This document shows positions 540 to 15,379 of a stretch of 53,292 bases of DNA, piece by piece. Source of the DNA: a virus (Duplodnaviria > Caudoviricetes). The notes under the pieces are model-generated. The model did not search any database. It saw nothing but the letters and a program-made list of their open reading frames with translations, and had not been told where the DNA came from. Numbering within the stretch: position 1 is the stretch's first letter; each line of letters starts with the position of its first letter. A program made the translations under genes and the position numbers. The stretch spans positions 1-53,292 of the IMG/VR virus record IMGVR_UViG_3300045977_000215. The stretch is one strand, 5' to 3'.

Positions 540-1534
540 TGGCGTTCGAGTTCCGGCCAGCGACCCGCGAGAACGTCTCGCTCTTGATCGGCATCGCGGG
601 CCCATCCGGCAGCGGCAAGACGTATTCGGCGCTCCGCATGGCGCGCGGCATCGCCGGAGAGAAGCCGTTCGCCGTCATCGACACGGAGGCGGGCCGGGCG
701 CGTCATTACGCCGACCAGTTCCGCTTCGATCACGGCGACCTCCGGGCGCCCTTCCGGCCCGACGCCTACTTGGACGCCATCCGGGCCGCGGAGGAAGCCC
801 ATTACCCGGTGGTTGTCGTGGATTCCTTCTCGCACGTCCACGCGGGCGAGGGCGGGGTGCTCGACTGGCAGGAGGAGATTCTCGACGAGATGGTCGCGCG
901 CGCGCAGCAGCGGGGCCAGAAGCGAGCAGAGTGGGAACTCCGGGAGTCCTACAAGCGGTCCGCGTGGATCGAGCCCAAGATGTCCTACAAGCGGATGGTG
1001 CAGCGGCTCCTCCAGGTGCGGGCGCATCTCATCCTGTGCCTGCGCGCCGAGGACAAGATCGACTTCGTGAAGGGGGAGGACGGCAAGACGAAGGCCGTCC
1101 CGATGGAGACCCTCGCCGGATTCCGCGGCTGGATTCCCATCTGCGACAAGCGCTTGCCGTTCGAGCTCACGGCGTCCGTGCTCATGCTGCCGGACCGTCC
1201 GGGCGTCGCGATCCCCATCAAGGTGCAGCAGCAGCACCGAGAGATGCTCGCCAACGATGCGCCCGTGAACGAAGAGACCGGCCAGCGGCTCGCGGCGTGG
1301 GCCAAGGGCGCGCCGCCGGTCCCGGTCGAGGCGCCAGCGCCGACGGTGCTCGACCAGGTGCGCGCCGAGCTGGAGCGGCGGCACCCGGGCAACACGGACA
1401 AGGCCAAACAGTCGAGGGGGCTGCTGGTCGCGCGCGCCTTCGGCGTCGACTCGTGGGCCGCGGTCCAACGCATGGACCCGGCACTCCAGGCCGATGGGCT
1501 GGCGCGCCTGCGGGCGATCGAGGACGCGGCGTGA
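539..1534 (+). CDS. AAA_24/Sak4-like phage recombination ATPase
   Basis: Walker A GPSGSGKT, VIDTEAGR, Walker B VVVDSFSH; lies next to the RecE-like exonuclease across the origin. Confidence 0.85.
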   Translation: MAFEFRPATRENVSLLIGIAGPSGSGKTYSALRMARGIAGEKPFAVIDTEAGRARHYADQFRFDHGDLRAPFRPDAYLDAIRAAEEAHYPVVVVDSFSHVHAGEGGVLDWQEEILDEMVARAQQRGQKRAEWELRESYKRSAWIEPKMSYKRMVQRLLQVRAHLILCLRAEDKIDFVKGEDGKTKAVPMETLAGFRGWIPICDKRLPFELTASVLMLPDRPGVAIPIKVQQQHREMLANDAPVNEETGQRLAAWAKGAPPVPVEAPAPTVLDQVRAELERRHPGNTDKAKQSRGLLVARAFGVDSWAAVQRMDPALQADGLARLRAIEDAA

Positions 1535-1785
1535 CGCCCCGCGCACGGCCGCCACTCCGCACCGTGCGCGCCGGCGAGCATGCGGAACTCCTCGCGCGGC
1601 TCCACGCGGACGAGGAGGCCCTCCGCGCGCTGGTGACGGTGCTGGACGAGGCAGACCTGGCGCGCATCAGAATCTACTCCGTCGTCGGCGACCCGTCCGT
1701 GCGCGCGCTGGTGGTCACGCTCGTGGACCAGCTCGCCCCCGCCCTGCGCGCGGCGCACGAGGCGCTGGGGGACATCGCGCCGTGA
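1531..1785 (+). CDS. Hypothetical protein
   Basis: GTGA overlap with upstream stop; helical, GC3-rich codons. Confidence 0.6.
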   Translation: MTPRARPPLRTVRAGEHAELLARLHADEEALRALVTVLDEADLARIRIYSVVGDPSVRALVVTLVDQLAPALRAAHEALGDIAP

Positions 1786-1943
1786 TGCGATCGGCTACGC
1801 TCTCTCGCACCAGGATCCCAATCGACCGCGGGGATGGCGACGCCATGACCTTCCGCGACTTCGCCCGCTCGTGGGTGAGCTGTAGCGCCCACTCGCTCGT
1901 GTTCCCGTCCGCGGCGACCTTGGTCGCGCGGTGGAACACATGA
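1785..1943 (+). CDS. Small hypothetical protein
   Basis: Coupled by TGATG and ATGA overlaps on both sides. Confidence 0.4.
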   Translation: MRSATLSRTRIPIDRGDGDAMTFRDFARSWVSCSAHSLVFPSAATLVARWNT

Positions 1944-2254
1944 CCCGGTGCAAGGGCTGCGGCGCCGAGGTGCTCTGGCGCAAGACGCCGGCCGGGCGCT
2001 ACATCGCGCTCGACCCCGGGCCGGAGCTGTTCCTGCGCCTGATCCCGACTGCGGAGGCGACCGACGAGGAGCGCGCGGCCCCGCGCCGGACGATCGTGCA
2101 ACCAGACGTGCGCGTGGTGGTCGGCCACGAGGTGCCGTCGACGTCCACGCGCGGGGCGCCGGTGCGCGGGCGGATTGCGCACTGGGCCACCTGTCCACAG
2201 GCGAACGCATTTCGACGGAAGGAGACGAGCCCAGATGCCCAGACGCCGCAGTGA
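1940..2254 (+). CDS. Small putative Zn-binding phage protein
   Basis: CKGCGAEVLW..T..GRYIALDP ... HWATCP pattern. Confidence 0.7.
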   Translation: MTRCKGCGAEVLWRKTPAGRYIALDPGPELFLRLIPTAEATDEERAAPRRTIVQPDVRVVVGHEVPSTSTRGAPVRGRIAHWATCPQANAFRRKETSPDAQTPQ

Positions 2255-2388
2255 CGACGACGACCAACCGCCCCTCGTGCCGCTGAGCGAGGAGGAGATG
2301 CAGAAGGCCGGCAAGCGGCTGGCGAAGCTCACGGGCGAGCTGGCCGCGATGGAACTGGACCACGCGGAGATTCGCAAGGAGCAGAAGG

Positions 2389-2448
2389 GTGACGCTCCTC
2401 TCCTGCCGCGTCTACGGCCTGCCGGTCGCCCAGGGCCGCCCGCGATGA
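2389..2448 (+). pseudogene. RusA-like N-terminal relic
   Basis: GTG frame reads MTLLSCRVYGLPVAQGRPR-stop, resembling the RusA N-terminal G-x-P-V-x-Q-G-R-P-R motif. Confidence 0.55.
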
Positions 2449-3284
2449 CCAAGCGGGTGGACGACGGCGCCGTGATCGAGGCGTATCGGCGCACGGGGAG
2501 CGTGCACAAGGCCGCGCGTGAGGTTGGGCTCAATCACTCCTCTGTCCATGAGCGCCTCATCCGCCTGGGCCTGAACAAGCCCGCCAATATTCTCACTGGG
2601 GCTGAGGTGGAGCGGCTCCGGCTGGAATATCGCATCTTCCGGGACGCTGGCCGTCTCGAAGACCTTGCGCGATCCATGGGGCGCAACAAGACGTTTCTGT
2701 GTGCCCGCGCGCGCGCCCTCGGGCTCACGATCAGCCGTAATGGAGGACCGAGGCCGTGGCTCGGCAAGTGGAAGTACATGAGTGAGGAGGCGGCGGGCGT
2801 CCTGTTCGACCGATTCCGGCGGTCGAGCTTGGGGCTGGAGCGATTCTGCCGCAAGACACACTTCGACTCTCTCGGATTTAGTCGGACGATGCAGCGCCAC
2901 TTCCCGGCCGAATATGAGGCCGTGATCGAAGCAAAGGCGCCCCGGCAGACGCTCTACCGGCTCGGGCGCGCGTTTGAGTACCGCGTGCGGGATGACCTCA
3001 AGGGATACCACTACTTCGTGCTCCGATCCCCCCGATCGCTGTCCCCCGTCGACCTCGTGGCGATCCGGCGCGGGGCGGTGCTGTTCGTCCAGTGCAAGCG
3101 AGGTGGCGCACTCGGCGTCGGGGAATGGAACGAGCTGTTTGCTCTCGCCGGGTCGGTTGGCGCTATCCCGCTGTTGGCCGAGATGCCGGTCTCTCGGGGC
3201 ATCACATACTGGCGCCTCCTCGACTTCAAGGATGGGACGAAGAGGGCGCAGCCTCGCGGGGCCTACCAGCCGGAGCATGCGTAA
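2445..3284 (+). CDS. HTH-domain protein fused to Hjc-type (PD-(D/E)XK) Holliday junction resolvase
   Basis: N-terminal HTH (GSVHKAAREVGLNHSSVHERL); C-terminal GRAFEYRVRDDL...VLRSPRS.SPVDLVAIR...LFVQCK; frame is also open upstream to ATG 2235. Confidence 0.8.
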   Translation: MTKRVDDGAVIEAYRRTGSVHKAAREVGLNHSSVHERLIRLGLNKPANILTGAEVERLRLEYRIFRDAGRLEDLARSMGRNKTFLCARARALGLTISRNGGPRPWLGKWKYMSEEAAGVLFDRFRRSSLGLERFCRKTHFDSLGFSRTMQRHFPAEYEAVIEAKAPRQTLYRLGRAFEYRVRDDLKGYHYFVLRSPRSLSPVDLVAIRRGAVLFVQCKRGGALGVGEWNELFALAGSVGAIPLLAEMPVSRGITYWRLLDFKDGTKRAQPRGAYQPEHA

Positions 3285-9104: not shown

Positions 9105-10762
9105 GTCTCCCGCGCTGGCTCGCCTGGCTGGCCCCCACGCCGGACCCGCGCGTGCTGGACCTCGAGGCGCGCCTGGCCAGCGTGGAGGCGCAGACGGAGA
9201 CCCGCGTGCGCGAGGCCTTCGCCATGGGCGCCCTCCGCGCCGAAGACCAGGCCGACCTGGCGCAGGGCTATCGCCGGCTCTCGGATGCGCAGGGCAAGAA
9301 TCCGTGGCGCCGCGATCTGCAGCCCCTGGCGCAGGACCAGATGCAGCGCCTGGTCTACTGGCTCTGGGAGTCCAATCCCCTCGCCAAGTGGCTCATCGAG
9401 ACGCCGGTGAATTTCATGCTCGGCGAGGGCGCCTCGGTCATCAGCCAGAACGATCAGGTGCGCGCGGTGATCGAGGCGTTCTGGGGCGACCCCGTCAACC
9501 AGCTCGACCGGCGGCTGCGGACCTGGGCGCGAGAACTCCTGCTCTACGGGGAACTGTGCCTGCCGGTGTCGGTGAATGCCATTGACGGGCATGTGCGGCT
9601 CGGCTACGTCGACCCGCTGGCGATCGACGAAGTGGTGACCGATCCCGATAACGCCTTGATCACGACGGCGGTCCGCATCAAGTCCTCGGTCACGGGCGGC
9701 CCGAAGCAGCTCCTGAAAGTGATCCGCGAGGACACGCGCCGCGCCTCCTCGACGCACGGTCTCCTGATGCCGAACGCGATGCTGGAACGCGATCTCGCCA
9801 CCGGCGAACCCTACGCGGGGGCGTGCTTTCTGTTCCAGATCAATCGCGTGTCGAGCGCGCGGCGCGGCCGGAGTGAATTGCTGCCGGACATCGACTGGCT
9901 CGATGGCTTCGACGCATTCCTCTTCGACTCGATGGACGCCGCCAGCCAGTTCAACACCTTTCTGTATGACGTGACGCTGGAGGGCATGAGCGAGGATCAA
10001 ATCCGCGCGTGGCTGGCCAACAACACGCGGATGAAGCGCGGGATGATCCGCGCCCACAACGAAAAGGTGAAGTGGGCCGAGGTGACGCCCGACCTCAAGG
10101 CCCAGGACAAGGACGCCTACGCGAAGCTCCTCCTGAGCTTCATCCTCGGTGGCCATTCGATCCCGCTGCACTGGTACGCCAGCGGCGAGGGGGTGTCGTT
10201 CGCGAGCGCCAAGGAGATGGGGCTCGTCCCGGTGAAGGCGTTCACCAGCCTCCAGCAGGAAGTCCGCCGACTCATCGCCGATCTGGTGCGCTTCGCGATT
10301 CATCAAGCCATCCGCGTCGGCGCGTTGCCGGAGACCGTGGTCGTCGGGCAGGTCGACGCGGCCGGATCCTCCACGGCGATCACGGCGCCGACGGACTGCG
10401 CCTTCACCGTCGTCCTGCCGGAACTCTCGATGCGCGACCAGGCGGCCATCGTCGCCGCGATCAACGGGTTGACGGCCGCGACCCAGCAGGTCGTGGCCCT
10501 CGGCTGGATGCGTCCGGAGACGGCGGCCCGCGTCCTCGCCAACATGTATTCGCAGCTCGGCATGGACATCAAGCCCGAGGAGGAGTACACGCCGGGCGCC
10601 GGGCCGCAGGGTGCCGCGCTCCAGGACTACCCCCAGCAGGACCTCCAGCGCCTCATGGCGCAACTGCAACGGGTCGGGCGCGGCGATGGCGAGAACCTTG
10701 GCCAGCCGAAGGACGATCAGACCGCGCGCCGCGCGAGTGTCGCCGCGGGGGGATCGGCATGA
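9101..10762 (+). CDS. Portal protein
   Basis: Position after TerL; ~553 aa; NPLAKWLIE...GELCL...LGYVDP...RGRSEL. Confidence 0.85.
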   Translation: MSLPRWLAWLAPTPDPRVLDLEARLASVEAQTETRVREAFAMGALRAEDQADLAQGYRRLSDAQGKNPWRRDLQPLAQDQMQRLVYWLWESNPLAKWLIETPVNFMLGEGASVISQNDQVRAVIEAFWGDPVNQLDRRLRTWARELLLYGELCLPVSVNAIDGHVRLGYVDPLAIDEVVTDPDNALITTAVRIKSSVTGGPKQLLKVIREDTRRASSTHGLLMPNAMLERDLATGEPYAGACFLFQINRVSSARRGRSELLPDIDWLDGFDAFLFDSMDAASQFNTFLYDVTLEGMSEDQIRAWLANNTRMKRGMIRAHNEKVKWAEVTPDLKAQDKDAYAKLLLSFILGGHSIPLHWYASGEGVSFASAKEMGLVPVKAFTSLQQEVRRLIADLVRFAIHQAIRVGALPETVVVGQVDAAGSSTAITAPTDCAFTVVLPELSMRDQAAIVAAINGLTAATQQVVALGWMRPETAARVLANMYSQLGMDIKPEEEYTPGAGPQGAALQDYPQQDLQRLMAQLQRVGRGDGENLGQPKDDQTARRASVAAGGSA

Positions 10763-12459
10763 TCGCCCGGGTCACGTTGCAGTCCACGCCGCAGGAACGA
10801 TTCATCGAGCAGATCGCCGCGATTCGCCGGCAGCTCGACGCCTTGCCCGCCGAGGCCGTGCGCGCGCTGACCGAGGAAGTCGACCGCGTGCGGCGCCAGG
10901 TGCTCGCCGAGATCGCCGCCGGACCGGAGGGATTCCCAGAGTACCGACTCCGCGACCTCGCCCGACGCCTCGCCGATGTGCTGGGCCAGTTCGCCGCGCG
11001 CTACGAGACGGTCCTCGGCCCGATCCAGGCGCAGATGTATACCGCGGGGGCGGAGCTCGCCGCGCGCCCCCTGGTGGACGCCGGGGTGACCTACGCCGTG
11101 CCGCAGATCACCCGGCGGCAGCTCGAGGTGCTGCAGGGCTACCAGGCCTCCCTGATCTCCGGCGTGGCCGAGGACACGGTCCGGGCCATCACGTCGACCC
11201 TTCGACTCGGCGCCCTCCGGGGCGAGAGCGTGCCCGAGATTCTCACCCGCGTGGCCGGCCGCCTGGACGATCCGGGCCCGTTCGGTACGCTGGCGACCCG
11301 CGCGGAAGCGATCACGCGGACGGAGCTCGGCCGTGCGCAGGCCATCGCGACCCAGGCCGGCCTCGACGAGACACGGCGCTTTGTCCCCGATCTGAAGAAA
11401 CAGTGGCAGCACTCTGGCAACCGCGGGCCGTACCGCCGGCTCGGGCATGTCGAGGCGCACGGGCAGACCCGGGACGTCGACGCGCCCTTTCGCGTCCGGC
11501 CGGCCCCGGGCCACCGCTACGAGAACCTCATGTTCCCGCGGGATGCCGCAGCCAGCCCGGAGAACTCCGTGTTTTGCTTTCTGCCGGGAACACTGGTGAG
11601 CGGCCGGTTTGTCGGCGCGCTAAAAGCCAGGTACGCGGGGCCGGCGCGGGAGATCAAGACCGCGCGGGGACAGCGGTTGCGCGTCACACCCAATCACCCC
11701 GTATTGACCTCGGACGGTTGGCTCCCTGCGGGCGAGATTCAGGAAGGCCAGGCACTGCTCGGCTATCGCGGGCATGAGAACGGGTCGTTTTTGGGGCTGG
11801 GGGATGTAGATGCCCAGGACCGACCAGCCAGCATCGAGGATGTATTCCAGGCGCTCTCGGTTCAGTCCGCCCCACTGCCCGCCCCCTACGCCATGCTGAA
11901 TCTCCATGGCGATCAAGTCTGGACATATGGCGATGTCCAGGTTACGGGGTCCTACCGGGAACTGTTGCTCTACCGCGACGCCCGCGCCGCGGAGGAGCGC
12001 AGCGAGTTCGTCCTCATGACGGAACCGTCGATGTTGTCCGGCGTACATGCTCTGAGCCCTCAACGTCTTGGTCGCCAGGCTATCTCGCTGGCCGGTTCTG
12101 GCCGCGTGGGCGTTGGCGTATTGACGTCGCGCCCTGTCGGGCTCGGCCCGAAGCCGGGCCCACACGAGATGTCCAGCGTCGGCACTTCCTCGGAGCTGGA
12201 CGCCGCGCTTGGTGAAGTGGCCCGTCAACGCGCAGCGGGATATCCCGGTGTCACGGCTCAGCTTGAGGAGCGATACCCCGGCCTGGTAGAGGCCGATCAG
12301 GTCGTCAAGGTTCGGGATATCGAGCATCGCGGCCATGTCTACGACCTCCAGTCGCCGATGGGGGTGCTCGTCGCTGACGGGATTATAGCCAGTAATTGCG
12401 GATGCATCTCCGTTCCCTGGCGCGAGGAATGGGCCGGCGACCTGGGACGCGCCGCGTGA
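10759..12459 (+). CDS. MuF/SPP1 gp7-like head morphogenesis protein, intein-containing
   Basis: RAEAITRTELGRA, KKQWQHSG..R..H...HGQ, LMFPRD; terminal NSVF/CGC motif split by a Hint intein. Confidence 0.9.
   Translation: MIARVTLQSTPQERFIEQIAAIRRQLDALPAEAVRALTEEVDRVRRQVLAEIAAGPEGFPEYRLRDLARRLADVLGQFAARYETVLGPIQAQMYTAGAELAARPLVDAGVTYAVPQITRRQLEVLQGYQASLISGVAEDTVRAITSTLRLGALRGESVPEILTRVAGRLDDPGPFGTLATRAEAITRTELGRAQAIATQAGLDETRRFVPDLKKQWQHSGNRGPYRRLGHVEAHGQTRDVDAPFRVRPAPGHRYENLMFPRDAAASPENSVFCFLPGTLVSGRFVGALKARYAGPAREIKTARGQRLRVTPNHPVLTSDGWLPAGEIQEGQALLGYRGHENGSFLGLGDVDAQDRPASIEDVFQALSVQSAPLPAPYAMLNLHGDQVWTYGDVQVTGSYRELLLYRDARAAEERSEFVLMTEPSMLSGVHALSPQRLGRQAISLAGSGRVGVGVLTSRPVGLGPKPGPHEMSSVGTSSELDAALGEVARQRAAGYPGVTAQLEERYPGLVEADQVVKVRDIEHRGHVYDLQSPMGVLVADGIIASNCGCISVPWREEWAGDLGRAA
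11620..12336 (-). CDS. Antisense intein-nested endonuclease: N-terminal HTH + DUF559/Vsr-like nuclease (238 aa)
   Basis: LIGLYQAGVSLLKLSRDTGISRCAL (HTH); EDELAALL...EQQFPVGPRNLDIAI...IAMEIQHG...RLEYILDAGWSVLGI; GGAGGT 7 nt before ATG. Confidence 0.8.
   Translation of the reverse strand: MAAMLDIPNLDDLIGLYQAGVSLLKLSRDTGISRCALTGHFTKRGVQLRGSADAGHLVWARLRAEPDRARRQYANAHAARTGQRDSLATKTLRAQSMYAGQHRRFRHEDELAALLRGAGVAVEQQFPVGPRNLDIAICPDLIAMEIQHGVGGGQWGGLNRERLEYILDAGWSVLGIYIPQPQKRPVLMPAIAEQCLAFLNLARREPTVRGQYGVIGCDAQPLSPRGLDLPRRPRVPGF
12337..12387 (-). promoter_or_regulatory. Antisense -10 box and Shine-Dalgarno for the nested endonuclease
   Basis: Minus strand reads TATAAT (12387-12382) ... GGAGGT (12349-12344) cgtagac ATG; no clear -35. 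Confidence 0.65.
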
Positions 12460-12640
12460 GCCCGTCCAGAACCCCCGAGCCGCGCCGGCCCGTGGCGGCG
12501 TCACCGCCGACGCCGGTGAGTCCCCCGGCGCCCCCGCCACGGGTCCGGCCGGCGCTGATCCCGAAACTGAGCGCCCTGCATCTGGCGGGATTACCGCATG
12601 ACGCCGAGCGGTGCCCGACGTGCCGCACCGAGGAGAAACC

Positions 12641-12850
12641 ATGATGGACGAGAAGACACCGACCCCGTCGCCGGAGGCGCCCATGTCCGAGGCGCTCGCG
12701 GACAAGCACTACGAGCAACGCCGGGCCGGCCTGCTCCCGCCCGATGCCGCCGCGGATCAGAAAGTCCTCGCCGCCCGGGACCGGAAGGCCAAGGACGCTG
12801 CGGCCGCGGCACTGGCCGAAGCGGCCCGTCGCGCAGCCCGGGGCCGGTAG
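12641..12850 (+). CDS. Small hypothetical protein
   Basis: GAGGAG RBS; helical Ala-rich sequence. Confidence 0.6.
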   Translation: MMDEKTPTPSPEAPMSEALADKHYEQRRAGLLPPDAAADQKVLAARDRKAKDAAAAALAEAARRAARGR

Positions 12851-12859
12851 GCCGCCGCG

Positions 12860-15379
12860 ATGATCCGGCAGGAGGGCGGGAAGTGGGTCCTGCGGTCGCG
12901 TGACGGCGACAAGGTGCTGGGCCGGTTCGACTCCGAAGACGACGCCACGCGCCACGAGGCACACGTCTCTCGGTTCTCGGAGGCGGTGGTGGCCGCCTGG
13001 CATGCGCGCCAGCCGGACTCGGTCGACGCCTGGCGCGTGAGCGAAGTCTTTGACGACGTCGCCGTGGTGTCAAAAGATCGGATGTTCCGCCGCGTGCCCT
13101 ACACGATCGAGGGCGACGCGGTGACGTTCGGATCGCCCGTCGAGATCAACGTCCACTTCGAGGAGATCGGCGAGTCGACCCCACTCGGCCGGCCGACGGA
13201 GCCCACCGGCTCGACCTGGGAGGTGCGCGTCCTGAAATTCGGTCGCTCGCTCAACGGGTGGCTCTGGACTCGGGAGGCCGGCGAGAAGCTCCTAGCGCAC
13301 CTGAGCTCGGCGCCGGTCGGGTGCTACGCCTACCAGGGCGTGACCGCGCACGCGGCCGAAGAGGCGGTGCTGTCGGCCAACGGGCCGGTAGTGCGCAACG
13401 TCGTCGGCGATATCCAGGCGCCCCGGCTCGAGGCGGACGGCGTCTATGCCCAGTTGCACATCCACGAGGACGCCGGCTGGCTGAAGACGAAGCTCCTCGG
13501 TCTGCAGGCTCGCGGCGTCGTCGATAAGGTGCTCGGGCTCTCGATCGATACCCTCGCCGGCTACGTCCCGGTGCAATTGCGCGAGGGCGCCACGAAGGCC
13601 ATCAAGGAGATCGGCCGGCTGATCTCGGTGGATATCGTCACCTCGCCGAGTGCGGATGGCCGGTTCGTGCGGGCTACGGCCGGACCCTTGCTCATGCCCC
13701 ATTCCACCACCACGCAGGAGGACCTCATGACCCGCGAGCAGATTCTCCAACTCATCCAGGCCAATCGGCCCCAGCTCCTCGCGGGCCGGGCGATCGAATC
13801 CATCACCGACGAAACCCTCCAGCTCTTGCTCGGCGACGCCATCAAGCTTGCCGCGCCAGCTCCTGCGCCGGCCCCGACGCCTCCGCCGCCCTACCAGGGC
13901 GGCGCGGGGACACCGCCCGCTCAAACGCCGCAGTGGGCGGCCGACATGGAACGCCGCTACGCCGTCAGCGTGACCCAGGCGCGCGTGGTCGAGGCCCTGG
14001 CTGGCGCCGTCACGCTGTCGGAGCTGGCGCGCGAGCGCGTGCGCAAGGCGTTCGTGGACAAGGTGGCGGACGCCGCGGAGATCGCCGCGCGCATCCAGGA
14101 AGAGCGGGAGTACCTCGCGGCGCTGTCGGGGTCAGGGGAGATTCGCGGCTTCGGCGCGACCCGGACGGAAGTGCTCGCGGCCCCGCTCGACAAGGTGCAG
14201 GCCGCGATGGACAAGATGTTCTTCCAGGACCTGGAGCCGGGGAGCCTCGACCTCGCGCGGTCCTTGGCGAATTCGCCCTTCACGCCGACCGCGCGCGCTC
14301 GGCTGCTGGAGTCCTACAAAGCCCGCGATGCCGCCATGAGTCGCGACCCTGGTCTGAAGTTCAAGGGGCTGCGCGATGCCTACGCGACCATCACCGGCGA
14401 CGAGGACATCACCGGGCATGTCGTGCGCGCCCGCGCCTCGGAAGCCATCCTCTCCACGACCTGGGCGGACATCCTCGGCAACACGCTCTATCGTCGCCTC
14501 TTGATGGATTACGCGCTCCCGCAGTACAACGAGCGCTCCATCTGCGACTTTGGCACGGCGCCGGACTTCCGGACCCGAGAAGTCGTGCATCTGAACTACT
14601 TCGCCGATATCTCCACGGTCGATCCGGAGTCTGCGGACTACACGGAGATCGCGGCGCCCGGGGACGACAAGGTCACCTATGCGGTGACCCAGCGCGGGAA
14701 CATCCTGACCATTTCGCGCAAGACGATCATCAACGACGATCTGAGCGCGGTCTCGCGGCTCGTCGGGCGCCTGGGTCGCTCCGCCCGCCGCACCCTGGCC
14801 AAGCACATCTGGGCCTTCTGGAACACCAATGCGGTGTTCGATGTCGATAGCGTGGCGTGGTTCAACGCGGCCCACGGCGCCAACACCTCCACGACGGTGC
14901 TCTCCGCGGATGCGACCGGCGCCGCCGCGGTCCGCGTCGGCATCACCGCCCTGATGAATATGGCCGAGCCGGGCTCGACCGAGAAACTTGGCATCCCGGA
15001 CCTCAATCAGCTCTGGCTCGATGTGCCGATCGCGCTCTGGACGGTGGCGGATGCGCTGAACCGCGCGCCGGAATTCGGCGCCGGCACCAAGAACCTCGTG
15101 TCGGGTCTCTTCGGCGCCAATAACGAGCGGGTGAACGCGAATCCGCTCCTGACGGATGCGACCGACTGGGGCGTCCACATGTCACCGGGCACCAGCGGGC
15201 GCGAGTCGCTGCGCGTGGACTTCCTGCAGGGCCGCGAAGAGCCTGAGTTCTTCCTGGCCGACCAGCCGACCGTGGGCCAAGCGTTCATCGCGGACAAGAT
15301 TCAATACAAGATTCGTCACGAGTACGGCGGCGACCTCATGGACTACCGCGGCGCCTTCAAAGCCATCGTGGCCGGCTAA
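12860..15379 (+). CDS. Fused prohead protease-scaffold-major capsid protein (Mu gpT-like capsid)
   Basis: N-terminal protease-like region (VGDI...LGLSID...SVDIVTSPSADGRF), Pro-rich linker, C-terminal FLQGREEPE...YKIRHEYGG..MDYRG. Confidence 0.85.
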   Translation: MIRQEGGKWVLRSRDGDKVLGRFDSEDDATRHEAHVSRFSEAVVAAWHARQPDSVDAWRVSEVFDDVAVVSKDRMFRRVPYTIEGDAVTFGSPVEINVHFEEIGESTPLGRPTEPTGSTWEVRVLKFGRSLNGWLWTREAGEKLLAHLSSAPVGCYAYQGVTAHAAEEAVLSANGPVVRNVVGDIQAPRLEADGVYAQLHIHEDAGWLKTKLLGLQARGVVDKVLGLSIDTLAGYVPVQLREGATKAIKEIGRLISVDIVTSPSADGRFVRATAGPLLMPHSTTTQEDLMTREQILQLIQANRPQLLAGRAIESITDETLQLLLGDAIKLAAPAPAPAPTPPPPYQGGAGTPPAQTPQWAADMERRYAVSVTQARVVEALAGAVTLSELARERVRKAFVDKVADAAEIAARIQEEREYLAALSGSGEIRGFGATRTEVLAAPLDKVQAAMDKMFFQDLEPGSLDLARSLANSPFTPTARARLLESYKARDAAMSRDPGLKFKGLRDAYATITGDEDITGHVVRARASEAILSTTWADILGNTLYRRLLMDYALPQYNERSICDFGTAPDFRTREVVHLNYFADISTVDPESADYTEIAAPGDDKVTYAVTQRGNILTISRKTIINDDLSAVSRLVGRLGRSARRTLAKHIWAFWNTNAVFDVDSVAWFNAAHGANTSTTVLSADATGAAAVRVGITALMNMAEPGSTEKLGIPDLNQLWLDVPIALWTVADALNRAPEFGAGTKNLVSGLFGANNERVNANPLLTDATDWGVHMSPGTSGRESLRVDFLQGREEPEFFLADQPTVGQAFIADKIQYKIRHEYGGDLMDYRGAFKAIVAG

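What the first reader, a model, noticed from the sequence alone, without database searches (positions are those of the whole stretch)
11575..12396. Intein whose putative homing endonuclease is encoded on the antisense strand
Seen: the MuF gene carries a 274-aa intein (CFLPGT...TPNHP...VYDL...IIASN/C). Its central ~170 aa show no LAGLIDADG or HNH motif. The opposite strand holds a 238-aa ORF (12336-11620) wholly inside the intein, with an N-terminal HTH and a C-terminal EQQFPVGPRNLDIAI...AMEIQHG...YILDAGWSVLGI segment (core at 11970-11890). Established: that pattern resembles DUF559/Vsr-like endonucleases, and canonical inteins carry their endonuclease in-frame between blocks B and F. Inference: this is a two-strand selfish element. 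The sense frame splices out to keep the virion protein intact, while a separately expressed antisense nuclease drives homing. I do not know of a description of this architecture but cannot check the literature.
Basis: partly seen in the sequence, partly recalled or inferred. Interest (0 to 1): 0.95.

Follow-up and report, generated by a model that had tools for sequence, protein, structure and literature searches.

The report
Intein with antisense homing-endonuclease gene
A self-splicing protein insert (intein) in a phage head-assembly gene carries, on the opposite DNA strand of the same codons, a real gene for a DNA-cutting enzyme that probably spreads the insert; the layout is real and widespread, but a 2025 preprint already described it in other phages.

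Summary
Window 11575-12396 (+) is a 274-aa intein (Cys1 ... Ser-Asn/Cys+1) in a MuF head-morphogenesis gene. Intein-free homologues 68-74% identical in the exteins read straight across the junction.

The 238-aa ORF 12336-11620 (-) lies inside the intein, codon for codon on the other strand. It is a real gene:
- AlphaFold2 gives it pLDDT 93. The sense translation of the same central DNA gets pLDDT 30-41.
- Its best PDB fold matches are I-Bth0305I and Vsr, and its family profile hits a DUF559-like nuclease.
- All 23 related loci examined keep both frames open, including 40-47% GC relatives where chance is 5e-8 or less.
- Between close phage pairs, substitutions in the central part fall on antisense third positions; in the exteins they fall on sense third positions.

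The nuclease start codon and Shine-Dalgarno motif are the reverse complement of intein block F codons.

Transcription of the antisense strand, DNA cleavage and homing are inferred, not shown.

The architecture is not new. bioRxiv 10.1101/2025.01.02.630785 reports antisense Vsr-like endonucleases in actinophage minor-capsid inteins. This copy is a new member, apparently outside actinophages. The family is large (1346 cluster representatives) and also occurs in Salmonella, Pseudomonas, Vibrio and Cronobacter phages.

The parts
10759..12459 (+). MuF-like head morphogenesis gene: 566-aa precursor (P0154), 292 aa after splicing
   Evidence: phrog_15127 and phrog_2468, head morphogenesis; P0154
11575..12396 (+). 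Intein, 274 aa, from Cys1 to Asn274 (penultimate residue Ser)
   Evidence: (intein-less alleles read across the junction)
11575..11781 (+). N-terminal HINT splicing lobe (about aa 1-69); block B TPNHP is at 11686-11700
   Evidence: aa 25-68 align to Pho RadA mini-intein residues 81-127; pLDDT 82-93
11782..12282 (+). Sense-frame insert (about aa 70-236) with no endonuclease fold; aa 128-235 are predicted disordered
   Evidence: sense less conserved than antisense here
12283..12396 (+). C-terminal HINT lobe (aa 237-274) with block F GHVYDL (12331-12348) and block G IIASN
   Evidence: (pLDDT 80-95)
12397..12399 (+). +1 Cys codon of the C-extein, the splice acceptor
11620..12336 (-). Antisense homing-endonuclease gene, 238 aa (P0002): ATG at 12336-12334, TAG stop at 11622-11620
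12345..12349 (-). GGAGG Shine-Dalgarno-like motif 8 nt upstream of the antisense ATG; it is the reverse complement of block F codons for D-L-Q
   Evidence: purine-rich motif at the same place in the 14 of 19 relatives where the automatic motif search placed the start
12208..12309 (-). Helix-turn-helix DNA-binding module of the endonuclease (aa 10-43)
   Evidence: helices 10-18, 23-30, 34-43; HTH_58 in 18 of 50 members, HTH_7 in 12 of 50
11725..12021 (-). Vsr/DUF559-like nuclease domain (aa 106-204); invariant D134 at 11935-11937 and E145 at 11902-11904
11620..11796 (-). Part of the endonuclease ORF (aa 181-238 plus stop) encoded opposite the intein N-lobe, including block B; both frames are constrained here
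   Evidence: (pLDDT 85-98)

Best explanation
This is a two-strand mobile element in a phage MuF gene. The plus strand encodes one continuous 274-aa class-1-type intein. Its two HINT lobes (about aa 1-69 and 237-274) excise it from the MuF precursor and restore ...ENSVF-CGC.... The roughly 168 sense residues between the lobes are mostly a tolerated, largely disordered linker whose main requirement is to contain no stop codon. The minus strand of the same codons encodes the functional cargo: a 238-aa protein with an N-terminal HTH and a Vsr/DUF559-like PD-(D/E)xK-type nuclease domain (conserved E108, D134, E145, R162). Its ATG is the reverse complement of the block F His codon. Its GGAGG ribosome-binding motif is the reverse complement of the D-L-Q codons. 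Its last 58 codons run back through intein block B. Shown here: both frames are open and under purifying selection across the family, the antisense product has a confident nuclease model, and intein-free alleles exist. Inferred: the antisense strand is transcribed from its own promoter; the nuclease cuts intein-free MuF alleles near AACTCCGTGTTT/TGCGGATGC in a co-infecting phage; and recombinational repair copies the intein and nuclease together (homing).
For: AF2 gives the antisense protein mean pLDDT 93.2 and pTM 0.76. The sense precursor scores pLDDT 30-41 over intein aa 128-235, while its HINT lobes score 80-95. The top three Foldseek hits of the antisense model are 3r3p_B I-Bth0305I, 1vsr and 1cw0_A (prob 0.97-0.99). 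The sense model matches only mini-inteins. The family profile hits 3hrl_A (deposited as 'Endonuclease-Like Protein') at E 1.6e-4. Pfam DUF559 hits 18 of 50 members and PF18741 hits 31 of 50. The antisense family has 1346 cluster representatives at E<=1e-3 and 674 at E<=1e-10. The antisense ORF is intact and codon-aligned to an open sense frame in 23 of 23 loci. P(no stop) in either frame is 1e-7 to 1e-14 in the 40-47% GC relatives. On a sense-built alignment of 16 sequences the antisense frame is still the more conserved over intein aa 75-149 (BLOSUM62 1.21 vs 0.75, p 1e-3) and aa 205-254 (0.84 vs 0.48, p 0.017). Single-coded controls go the other way: N-extein 0.46 vs -0.34, intein aa 1-16 1.52 vs 0.03, intein aa 255-274 2.14 vs 0.67. 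In the close pair Vivi2/Affeca, extein differences at sense codon positions 1/2/3 are 7/5/94 and central differences are 41/11/26 (p 1.6e-14). In ViaConlectus/Keitabear, changed central codons are synonymous/nonsynonymous 54/38 in the antisense frame against 16/76 in the sense frame (p 1e-8). Intein-less alleles. Start codon and SD.
Against: There is no direct evidence of antisense transcription or translation. Sigma-70-type promoter scans found nothing above the shuffled background in the window or in three relatives. Nearly all genes of this phage are on the plus strand. The metatranscriptome data are contigs and carry no strand information. In the window itself the open antisense frame is only weakly significant (P about 0.02), and GC by codon position is ambiguous (0.74/0.51/0.71). 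The window's own protein hits no Pfam family. It differs from the family consensus at 5 of 34 columns that are at least 80% conserved (S52A, E55G, K58V, Y131R, V144M), so this copy could be weakened. The Foldseek E-values are modest (0.012-0.07). No conserved histidine follows E145, unlike what I recall for Vsr, DUF559 and EDxHD enzymes.
Confidence: 0.85

Rival explanations
1. The antisense ORF is a by-product. High GC content and codon-aligned mirroring of a conserved sense-frame domain keep it open and make it look conserved, and the real endonuclease or linker domain is in the sense frame.
For: The window has 67.5% GC and many long spurious ORFs. Openness within the window alone has P about 0.02. 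The sense frame shows some conserved motifs in the insert (EDVF, DFHGD, GxVxVV) and moderate pLDDT of 58-82 for intein aa 79-127.
Against: Relatives with 40-53% GC keep the antisense frame open against P of 1e-4 to 1e-14. Central substitutions between close pairs are mostly synonymous in the antisense frame and nonsynonymous in the sense frame. AF2 gives pLDDT 93 for the antisense protein against 30-41 for the sense centre. The sense motifs are exact mirrors of the nuclease motifs YNxDxA and AVEV (read from the sequence). No nuclease fold matches the sense model.
Confidence: 0.03
2. The family is a true two-strand element, but the window's copy is a decaying relic. The intein still splices and is inherited vertically, while its antisense nuclease is inactive or not expressed.
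For: The window's copy shows 5 of 34 deviations at well-conserved columns, including Y131R and V144M next to the catalytic D134 and E145. It has no Pfam hit of its own and no promoter-like site. In a high-GC genome an unselected antisense frame can stay open for a long time. The preprint reports vertical-looking inheritance for some VSR-like groups (section 15).
Against: All 6 invariant residues are kept, and the ORF, the ATG and a perfect GGAGG are intact. The same Arg at position 131 occurs in other intact members (2 of 50). The AF2 model of this very sequence is confident.
Confidence: 0.3
3. The antisense protein is real but is not a homing endonuclease. It could be, for example, a DNA-binding regulator or a nuclease used in phage-phage or phage-host conflict that merely shelters inside the intein.
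For: Cleavage specificity is untested. The family lacks the conserved histidine I recall for Vsr and EDxHD enzymes. The HTH modules vary from none to three.
Against: Every locus fetched with the antisense protein as query (22 of 22) has it inside, or directly attached to, this intein at the same MuF site, and so does the one Salmonella-phage locus examined that was found with the sense query. Intein-free alleles exist among close exteins, as expected for homing. Its best structural match is a proven homing endonuclease. The preprint reports horizontal-transfer patterns for two VSR-like intein groups (section 15).
Confidence: 0.08

Closest known systems
Anti-sense VSR-like HEN inteins of actinobacteriophages (Gosselin, Arsenault and Gogarten, bioRxiv 10.1101/2025.01.02.630785; abstract and sections 8, 15, 28 read, plus term searches)
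   Same: A full, contiguous intein in a phage minor capsid (MuF) protein, with a Vsr-like homing endonuclease ORF on the antisense strand. The in-frame insert has no recognisable structure. Their antisense model matches Vsr 1CW0, and HHpred matches 3R3P. My tblastn hits include PhagesDB phages (Vivi2, Malisha, Sejanus, ViaConlectus).
   Different: Their survey is restricted to PhagesDB actinophages. This window is an uncultivated soil phage whose capsid relatives are Mu-like phages of Gram-negative bacteria and a cyanophage. I also find the element in Salmonella, Pseudomonas, Vibrio and Cronobacter phages and in a Methylococcaceae MAG. [quoted passage not shown] Here the ORF runs 58 codons into the N-lobe, through block B, and takes its ATG and SD from block F. 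Their supplements, which list which phage carries which HEN type, could not be opened.
Fractured genes: split inteins with a free-standing Vsr-like endonuclease gene between the halves (Dassa et al. 2009, PMC2677866; abstract and term-search passages read)
   Same: A Vsr-like putative homing endonuclease associated with an intein, mainly in phages, and expressed as a separate protein rather than as an intein domain.
   Different: There the host gene and the intein are split into two genes and the nuclease gene lies between them. The passages read describe 6-69 bp overlaps with the downstream gene, and the words 'antisense' and 'complementary strand' do not occur in the text. Here the intein is contiguous and the nuclease is on the opposite strand, overlapping it completely.
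I-Bth0305I, EDxHD family (Taylor et al. 2011, PMC3239194, search listing and abstract start only; PDB 3r3p)
   Same: It is the best structural match of the antisense model (prob 0.99, TM 0.58 normalised to the target). I recall its two-part layout of an N-terminal DNA-binding region and a C-terminal Vsr-like catalytic domain.
   Different: It is encoded in a group I intron of a phage recA gene. Sequence identity in the fold alignment is 12%. The motif histidine (recalled) has no conserved counterpart here.
Anti-sense LAGLIDADG inteins (Gorbalenya 1998; Gogarten et al. 2002), known to me only as cited in the preprint, sections 8 and 15
   Same: The homing endonuclease is encoded on the strand opposite a contiguous intein.
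   Different: The nuclease family differs (LAGLIDADG rather than Vsr-like). The hosts are Synechocystis dnaX, a Chloroflexus SpoVR-like gene and some actinophage minor capsid genes.
Canonical bifunctional inteins such as PI-SceI or PI-PfuI (recalled; PI-PfuI 1dq3 appears among the weak fold hits)
   Same: A HINT splicing domain interrupted between its lobes by the homing function, inserted at a conserved site of an essential gene.
   Different: In canonical inteins the endonuclease is an in-frame domain of the same polypeptide. Here the in-frame insert is a filler and the enzyme is a separate protein from the other strand.

Membership tests
Intein (HINT protein-splicing domain, class 1 type) | N-terminal Cys or Ser nucleophile at position 1 | tested here: met
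   Cys1 at 11575-11577. It is nearly invariant (at least 90%) in the 56-sequence alignment A3 (C273).
Intein (HINT protein-splicing domain, class 1 type) | Block B TxxH motif | tested here: met
   T38-P-N-H41-P. N312 and H313 are invariant and T310 nearly invariant in the 56-sequence alignment A3.
Intein (HINT protein-splicing domain, class 1 type) | C-terminal Asn followed by a Cys, Ser or Thr +1 residue | tested here: met
   ...IIASN/C. N546 and C547 are invariant in A3.
Intein (HINT protein-splicing domain, class 1 type) | Penultimate His (common, and from recall not obligatory) | tested here: not met
   The residue is Ser273. Relatives have either SN or HN.
Intein (HINT protein-splicing domain, class 1 type) | HINT fold | tested here: met
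   The top Foldseek hits of the precursor model are mini-inteins 2lqm, 2imz and 6frg (prob 1.00). phmmer hits the Pho RadA intein at E 2e-5. Pfam Intein_splicing scores 33.9 bits, just under the 35.8-bit cut-off.
Intein (HINT protein-splicing domain, class 1 type) | Precise in-frame insertion relative to intein-free homologues | tested here: met
   P0256-P0258 (68-74% identical exteins) align without the 274 residues and read ...VFCGC....
Intein (HINT protein-splicing domain, class 1 type) | Protein splicing activity | not testable with these tools
   This needs expression of the precursor and detection of ligated MuF and free intein.
Vsr / DUF559-like PD-(D/E)xK nucleases | Vsr-like alpha/beta nuclease fold | tested here: met
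   The top three Foldseek hits are 3r3p_B, 1vsr and 1cw0_A (prob 0.97-0.99, TM to target 0.56-0.58), though the E-values are only 0.012-0.07.
Vsr / DUF559-like PD-(D/E)xK nucleases | Sequence-profile membership | tested here: inconclusive
   The family profile hits 3hrl_A at E 1.6e-4. 18 of 50 members hit DUF559 and 31 of 50 hit PF18741 at E<=0.01, but the window's own protein hits neither.
Vsr / DUF559-like PD-(D/E)xK nucleases | Conserved acidic catalytic residues on the core sheet | tested here: met
   D134 and E145 are invariant (50 of 50) and E108 is present in 46 of 50. All three are present in the window.
EDxHD homing endonucleases (I-Bth0305I) | Conserved His of the E-D-x-H-D motif (motif recalled, not taken from a call) | tested here: not met
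   No position between 146 and 160 has a conserved His; the commonest residues there are Q, T/S, G and N.
Homing endonuclease gene (functional class) | Resides within a self-splicing intervening element at a conserved site of a host gene | tested here: met
   In 21 of the 23 loci examined it lies inside the intein, which sits at the conserved CxC (in most members NCRC) site at the end of the MuF domain. In the other two, the duplicate contigs L019 and L020, it lies in a relic intein just downstream of MuF (only L019 is among the 23).
Homing endonuclease gene (functional class) | Presence/absence polymorphism of the element among closely related host genes | tested here: met
   Intein-free alleles are 68-74% identical to the window's exteins. 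The nearest intein-bearing relative, P0155, is 56% identical overall.
Homing endonuclease gene (functional class) | Site-specific cleavage of the element-free allele and biased inheritance | not testable with these tools
   This needs cleavage assays and co-infection crosses.
Homing endonuclease gene (functional class) | Expression of the ORF | tested here: inconclusive
   A GGAGG lies 8 nt upstream of the ATG. No promoter-like site was found. RNA-library contigs cover the region but give no strand information.
Anti-sense VSR-like HEN intein (architecture of the 2025 preprint) | Contiguous intein with a Vsr-like ORF on the antisense strand within the intein | tested here: met
   preprint section 8.

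The most novel reading that the evidence does not exclude
The element is not an actinophage curiosity. It is an ancient dual-coding module found in phages of several bacterial phyla, with at least 1346 protein clusters at 50% identity. Its two genes are physically interlocked. The nuclease takes its start codon and ribosome-binding site from the reverse complement of intein block F (H-V-Y-D-L-Q/E). Its last helix and tail are written through the N-terminal splicing lobe, including block B. Its variable number of HTH repeats (none to three) expands and contracts without ever closing the sense frame. Neither the intein nor the nuclease can then be lost or replaced independently. That would explain why this intein family always carries this nuclease, and it would make the family one of the largest and best-supported cases of long (0.7-1.1 kb) antisense overlapping genes in prokaryotic viruses. 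The breadth beyond actinophages and the interlock are not in the preprint text I read, and my literature searches found no other description.
Probability: 0.55. Interest if true: 0.6.

Novelty: new member of a known kind. Interest (0 to 1): 0.5.

Why it matters
Inteins are taught as single polypeptides whose endonuclease is an in-frame domain. Here the mobility enzyme is a separate protein written backwards through the same codons. That gives a natural system in which about 240 codons are read on both strands, with selection measurable in each frame.

It also bears on how inteins acquire endonucleases: invasion by a free-standing nuclease gene, the 'splicing first' view. And it bears on annotation, because none of the 11 phage-database records I fetched annotates the antisense gene at that place.

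The same element sits in easily grown phages of laboratory hosts (Gordonia terrae, Mycobacterium smegmatis). So antisense expression, cleavage and homing can be tested directly. For this window specifically, the value is confirmation and extension of a recently reported architecture, not a discovery.

Tried and rejected
GC by codon position within the window: the exteins show GC3 of 0.90, but in the intein sense positions 1 and 3 are both about 0.7. This is compatible with dual coding or with foreign origin and was not used as evidence.

Promoter and terminator scans of the window and of ES2, Vibrio H2 and a Salmonella phage: nothing exceeded the shuffled controls. One TTGACT-18-TATTAT site lies about 46 nt upstream of the Vibrio H2 antisense ATG, but two sites were found where 2.4 were expected.

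RNA evidence: four soil metatranscriptome runs hold parts of the stretch, X7 with 16.8-kb and 36-kb contigs across it. They are kept as contigs, so they give no strand, ends or expression level, and DNA carry-over cannot be excluded. I claim no evidence for or against antisense transcription. Six DNA runs may be the source sample and are not independent.

I considered that sense residues 79-127 (pLDDT 58-82) belong to the HINT fold, which would make the nuclease core doubly structured. I rejected this as unsupported. In the Pho RadA mini-intein alignment, query residue 68 is followed directly by query residue 237, and the conserved sense motifs there are mirror images of the nuclease motifs. 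The AF2 signal may be a ghost of antisense covariation.

I checked hits that covered only 41-56% of the sense intein (P0183, P0193, P0228), hoping for inteins without the nuclease. They are the same family with longer central inserts, so they did not help.

I read passages of the phiCbK genome paper (PMC3556154). Its inteins are in TerL and RNR and are unrelated to this case.

I did not run complex prediction or the protein-atlas search because no claim here needs them.

I did not establish whether truly free-standing relatives, with no intein trace on the other strand, exist. The preprint says they do. Every top hit I inspected still carries the YGVI/YRVI-type tail that mirrors block B.
Full report
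WHAT IS THERE. The window is a whole IMG/VR virus record of 53,292 bp with direct terminal repeats and 67.5% GC. Nearly all of its genes are on the plus strand. A MuF/SPP1-gp7-type head-morphogenesis gene lies at 10759-12459 (+) and encodes a 566-aa precursor, P0154 (PHROG head-morphogenesis families). Residues 273-546 of the precursor (window 11575-12396) form a 274-aa intein. It has Cys1, block B T38-P-N-H41-P, block F GHVYDL and a C-terminal IIASN, followed by Cys+1. Pfam finds only Intein_splicing (E 3.3e-8, 33.9 bits against a 35.8-bit cut-off). phmmer finds the Pho RadA and Mtu RecA inteins. The AF2 precursor model matches only mini-inteins in the PDB (2lqm, 2imz, 6frg; prob 1.00). Three intein-free homologues, P0256-P0258 (293-294 aa, 68-74% identical), align on both sides of the intein and read ...ENSVFCGC.... 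The boundaries are therefore exact, and the site is polymorphic for the element.

THE ANTISENSE ORF. From ATG 12336 to TAG 11622-11620 the minus strand encodes 238 aa (P0002). Each of its codons is the reverse complement of one intein codon, from sense residue 254 back to residue 16. In a 67.5% GC genome this frame is often open by chance. Given the phage's codon usage, the probability of no stop is only about 0.02, so the window alone proves little. The relatives decide the matter.

RELATIVES. tblastn with the antisense protein hits 35 phage records, 32 of them over at least 80% of its length, always on the strand opposite the MuF gene. They include Pseudomonas, Cronobacter, Vibrio, Gordonia, Mycobacterium and Rhodococcus phages. 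The sense intein hits 83 records, 44 of them Salmonella phages. The one Salmonella phage I opened has the same antisense gene, too diverged for the first search to find. More loci came from IMG/VR, JGI metagenomes and a Methylococcaceae MAG. In 22 of 22 loci examined (counting the window and some duplicate contigs) the antisense ORF is intact and codon-aligned to an open sense frame. L028 makes it 23 of 23. In the low-GC members this cannot be chance:
- L009 (40% GC): 25 antisense stops and 22 sense stops expected, none seen, P 1.8e-14 and 7.7e-13.
- Vibrio phage H2 (47% GC): P 3.5e-11 and 4.6e-8.
- Cronobacter phage ES2 (53% GC): P 1.3e-4 and 2.1e-3.

An exhaustive HMMER search finds 1346 cluster representatives at E<=1e-3, 674 at E<=1e-10 and 51 at E<=1e-30. 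Many are 230-240 aa and align end to end. The longer ones have two to four matched stretches, which are repeated HTH modules.

WHICH FRAME IS SELECTED. I ran three independent tests.
(a) Structure. With a 50-sequence alignment, AF2 gives the antisense protein mean pLDDT 93.2 and pTM 0.76. The model has a three-helix HTH (residues 10-43), a helical linker and an alpha/beta domain (strands 123-128, 131-137, 142-148, 172-178; helices 160-168, 188-204). With a 56-sequence alignment the sense precursor has pLDDT 30-41 over intein residues 128-235, while its HINT lobes score 80-95.
(b) Matched column conservation in 16 non-redundant loci. Even on an alignment built from the sense proteins, the antisense translation of the same codons is the more conserved over intein 75-149 (BLOSUM62 1.21 vs 0.75, p 1e-3) and 205-254 (0.84 vs 0.48, p 0.017). 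Over 150-204 neither frame is conserved (0.02 vs 0.05). In single-coded controls the sense frame wins clearly: N-extein 0.46 vs -0.34, intein 1-16 1.52 vs 0.03, intein 255-274 2.14 vs 0.67. Over intein 17-74, where the nuclease tail overlaps the N-lobe, the sense frame wins (1.74 vs 0.93) but the antisense value stays high. The antisense-built alignment gives the same picture.
(c) Close pairs. Between Gordonia phages Vivi2 and Affeca the exteins differ at sense codon positions 1/2/3 by 7/5/94. The central intein differs by 41/11/26, so changes shift to sense position 1, which is antisense position 3 (Fisher p 1.6e-14). Changed central codons are synonymous/nonsynonymous 12/46 in the sense frame and 29/29 in the antisense frame (p 1.7e-3). 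For ViaConlectus/Keitabear the figures are 16/76 and 54/38 (p 1e-8). For ES2/BR313c they are 21/111 and 47/85 (p 4e-4).

Purifying selection therefore acts on the antisense frame in the centre and on the sense frame in the splicing blocks. The sense centre is constrained mainly to stay open.

WHAT THE ANTISENSE PROTEIN IS. The top three Foldseek hits of its model are the catalytic domain of homing endonuclease I-Bth0305I (3r3p_B; E 0.012, prob 0.99, TM 0.58 to the target) and E. coli Vsr (1vsr, 1cw0_A). The family profile hits PDB 3hrl_A (deposited as 'Endonuclease-Like Protein') at E 1.6e-4 over positions 104-194, and its N-terminus gives weak hits to transposase- and resolvase-type HTHs. Scanned one by one, 31 of 50 members hit PF18741 (REase_MTES_1575), 18 of 50 DUF559, 18 of 50 HTH_58 and 12 of 50 HTH_7. 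The window's own protein hits nothing at E<=0.01. Invariant residues are S22, R49, W59, D134, A143 and E145. E108, Q125, Y131, N132, R162 and W171 are conserved in at least 90% of members. No conserved histidine follows E145. In this it differs from what I recall of Vsr, DUF559 and EDxHD enzymes, so I file it as Vsr/DUF559-like by fold and not as an EDxHD member. The window's copy keeps all six invariant residues but departs at 5 of 34 columns conserved at 80% or more (S52A, E55G, K58V, Y131R, V144M).

HOW THE TWO GENES INTERLOCK. These points are read from the sequence.
- The nuclease ATG (12336-12334) is the reverse complement of the CAT codon of His254 in block F GHVYDL.
- Eight nucleotides upstream on the minus strand lies GGAGG (12349-12345), the reverse complement of the D-L-Q codons.
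- An automatic search for the mirrored block-F motif placed the start in 14 of 19 loci. At that place all 14 show a purine-rich motif, ranging from GGAGG or GAGG to weak GAAA. Eleven start at ATG, one at GTG and two at an ATG one codon later. The other five starts were set by eye.
- The nuclease stop is the reverse complement of a Leu codon in the conserved sense motif (G/A)LK..Y.G at intein residue 16.
- The last 58 nuclease codons, covering helix 188-204 and the tail ...GQYGVIG... (pLDDT 85-98), are written through the intein N-lobe. YGVIG mirrors TPNHP of block B.
- The conserved sense motifs in the insert, DFHGD and GxVxVV, are the mirror images of the nuclease motifs AVEV and YNxDxA.
- Comparison with the Pho RadA mini-intein places the sense insert at about residues 69-236.

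MECHANISM AND ITS STATUS. Shown: two overlapping, selected reading frames; a HINT fold on one strand and an HTH plus Vsr-like nuclease on the other; a precise insertion polymorphism. Inferred:
(i) MuF is made as a precursor from the late operon and the intein splices out.
(ii) A minus-strand transcript starting in or beyond the C-extein region (12337 to about 12860) is translated from the block F ATG.
(iii) The nuclease recognises and cuts intein-free MuF alleles near AACTCCGTGTTT/TGCGGATGC in a co-infecting genome.
(iv) Repair copies the whole module.

I found no promoter and no strand-resolved RNA. Whether the window's slightly deviant copy is active is open; I give the relic reading about 0.3.

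WHAT IS KNOWN. I ran seven full-text searches. They turn up one description of this architecture: Gosselin, Arsenault and Gogarten, bioRxiv 10.1101/2025.01.02.630785, version of 20 October 2025. I read the abstract, sections 8, 15 and 28, and term-search passages. Among 784 PhagesDB inteins they report 63 with non-canonical endonucleases, including 'anti-sense VSR-like' HENs. They state that minor capsid proteins are invaded only by inteins with non-canonical HENs. Their antisense model matches Vsr 1CW0 (Z 10.6) and 3R3P by HHpred (E 4.6e-5), and the in-frame part matches nothing. They cite Gorbalenya 1998 and Gogarten et al. 2002 for antisense LAGLIDADG inteins, and Dassa et al. 2009 for Vsr-like nucleases between split-intein halves. 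I saw the Dassa abstract and term-search passages; the word 'antisense' does not occur in that paper. The window is therefore a new member of a kind described very recently.

What I add to the preprint text I could read:
- Occurrence well outside actinophages. This phage's capsid relatives are Mu-like phages of Gram-negative bacteria and a cyanophage. The element is also in Salmonella, Pseudomonas, Vibrio and Cronobacter phages and in a Methylococcaceae MAG.
- The size of the family.
- Quantitative two-frame selection tests.
- The finding that the nuclease ORF is not outside the splicing domain but borrows its translation signals and its last third from it.

VERDICT. Expression and homing are untested. 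The novelty claim is not upheld. Interest is moderate (0.5): the biology is attractive and now testable in laboratory phages, but the architecture is already in print as a preprint.

Noticed in passing
L019 1366-3014 (identical arrangement in L020, a contig from another metagenome): The MuF ORF (2178..3014, minus strand) is complete without an intein and ends ...ARCVREFLPHFD.... Directly downstream is a 271-aa ORF (1366..2181) that is a 5'-truncated intein lacking Cys1. It ends ...ILVHN/CVREFLP, a duplicate of the C-extein start. It still carries an intact antisense nuclease ORF (1489..2139, GTG start). This looks like a relic or transitional form between an intein-borne and a free-standing endonuclease gene.
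   Followed up: partly
L002 2342-3187; L009 2501-3517; L004 1239-2114; L008 and L015; L027 1384-2010: The number of N-terminal HTH modules in the antisense nuclease varies. The REQ3 copy (L027) lacks the HTH region. The window has one module. By eye, the Vibrio H2, L004, L008 and Vivi2/Affeca copies have about two, and the Methylococcaceae MAG copy (L009) about three. Each expansion lengthens the sense-frame linker without introducing a stop, even at 40% GC.
   Followed up: partly
L025 (Affeca) 1324-2166 and L026 (Keitabear) about 1490-2238: Section 15 of the preprint names Affeca, Keitabear, Sedona and 'Angelicase' (cluster 47) among the endonuclease VII-like, frame-3 HEN inteins. In the MuF inteins of Affeca and Keitabear I see an intact antisense HTH plus Vsr-like ORF with the YNLD...AVEV motifs, and no obvious frame-3 ORF of 60 aa or more. 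Either cluster 47 refers to something else or the classification differs. The supplement was not available to check.
   Followed up: partly
window 11575-12396 compared with 10801-11574: GC at the third codon position falls from 0.90 in the exteins to about 0.71 in the intein, and overall GC falls from about 0.73 to 0.65. This fits dual-coding constraint, recent acquisition from a lower-GC donor, or both.
   Followed up: no
window 12460-12860: A gap of about 400 bp lies between the MuF stop and the next large gene. It holds a possible 79-aa plus-strand ORF (12611-12850, Ala/Lys/Asp-rich). This is the only room for a minus-strand promoter for the nuclease. One weak terminator-like hairpin lies on the minus strand at 12674-12659.
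   Followed up: no
window 12860-15379: An 839-aa ORF whose C-terminal 40% (residues about 500-839) resembles Mu gpT-type major head proteins of Gram-negative phages and of a Microcystis phage. The N-terminal 500 residues found no match in that search and may be a fused protease or scaffold.
   Followed up: no
L004 51-2624 (minus strand); proteins P0183 and P0228: Some MuF proteins that carry this intein have long C-terminal extensions after the MuF domain (857 aa in L004). P0183 and P0228 carry a precomputed Pfam PF18810 domain, whose name I did not look up.
   Followed up: no
window 9500-14000 in runs X7-X10: Soil metatranscriptome libraries from three samples contain contigs identical to this phage. 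In X7, 16.8-kb and 36-kb contigs at depth about 16 meet near 12490-12508. So the phage, or its DNA, was present in those RNA preparations.
   Followed up: partly
GenBank phage records under L001-L003 and L021-L028: None of the 11 deposited annotations I fetched lists the antisense nuclease gene at that place. The intein-bearing MuF gene is variously called hypothetical protein, capsid maturation protease, minor capsid protein or head morphogenesis protein. In one further Salmonella phage record, seen only in the search listing, it is called an NAD+--asparagine ADP-ribosyltransferase.
   Followed up: no
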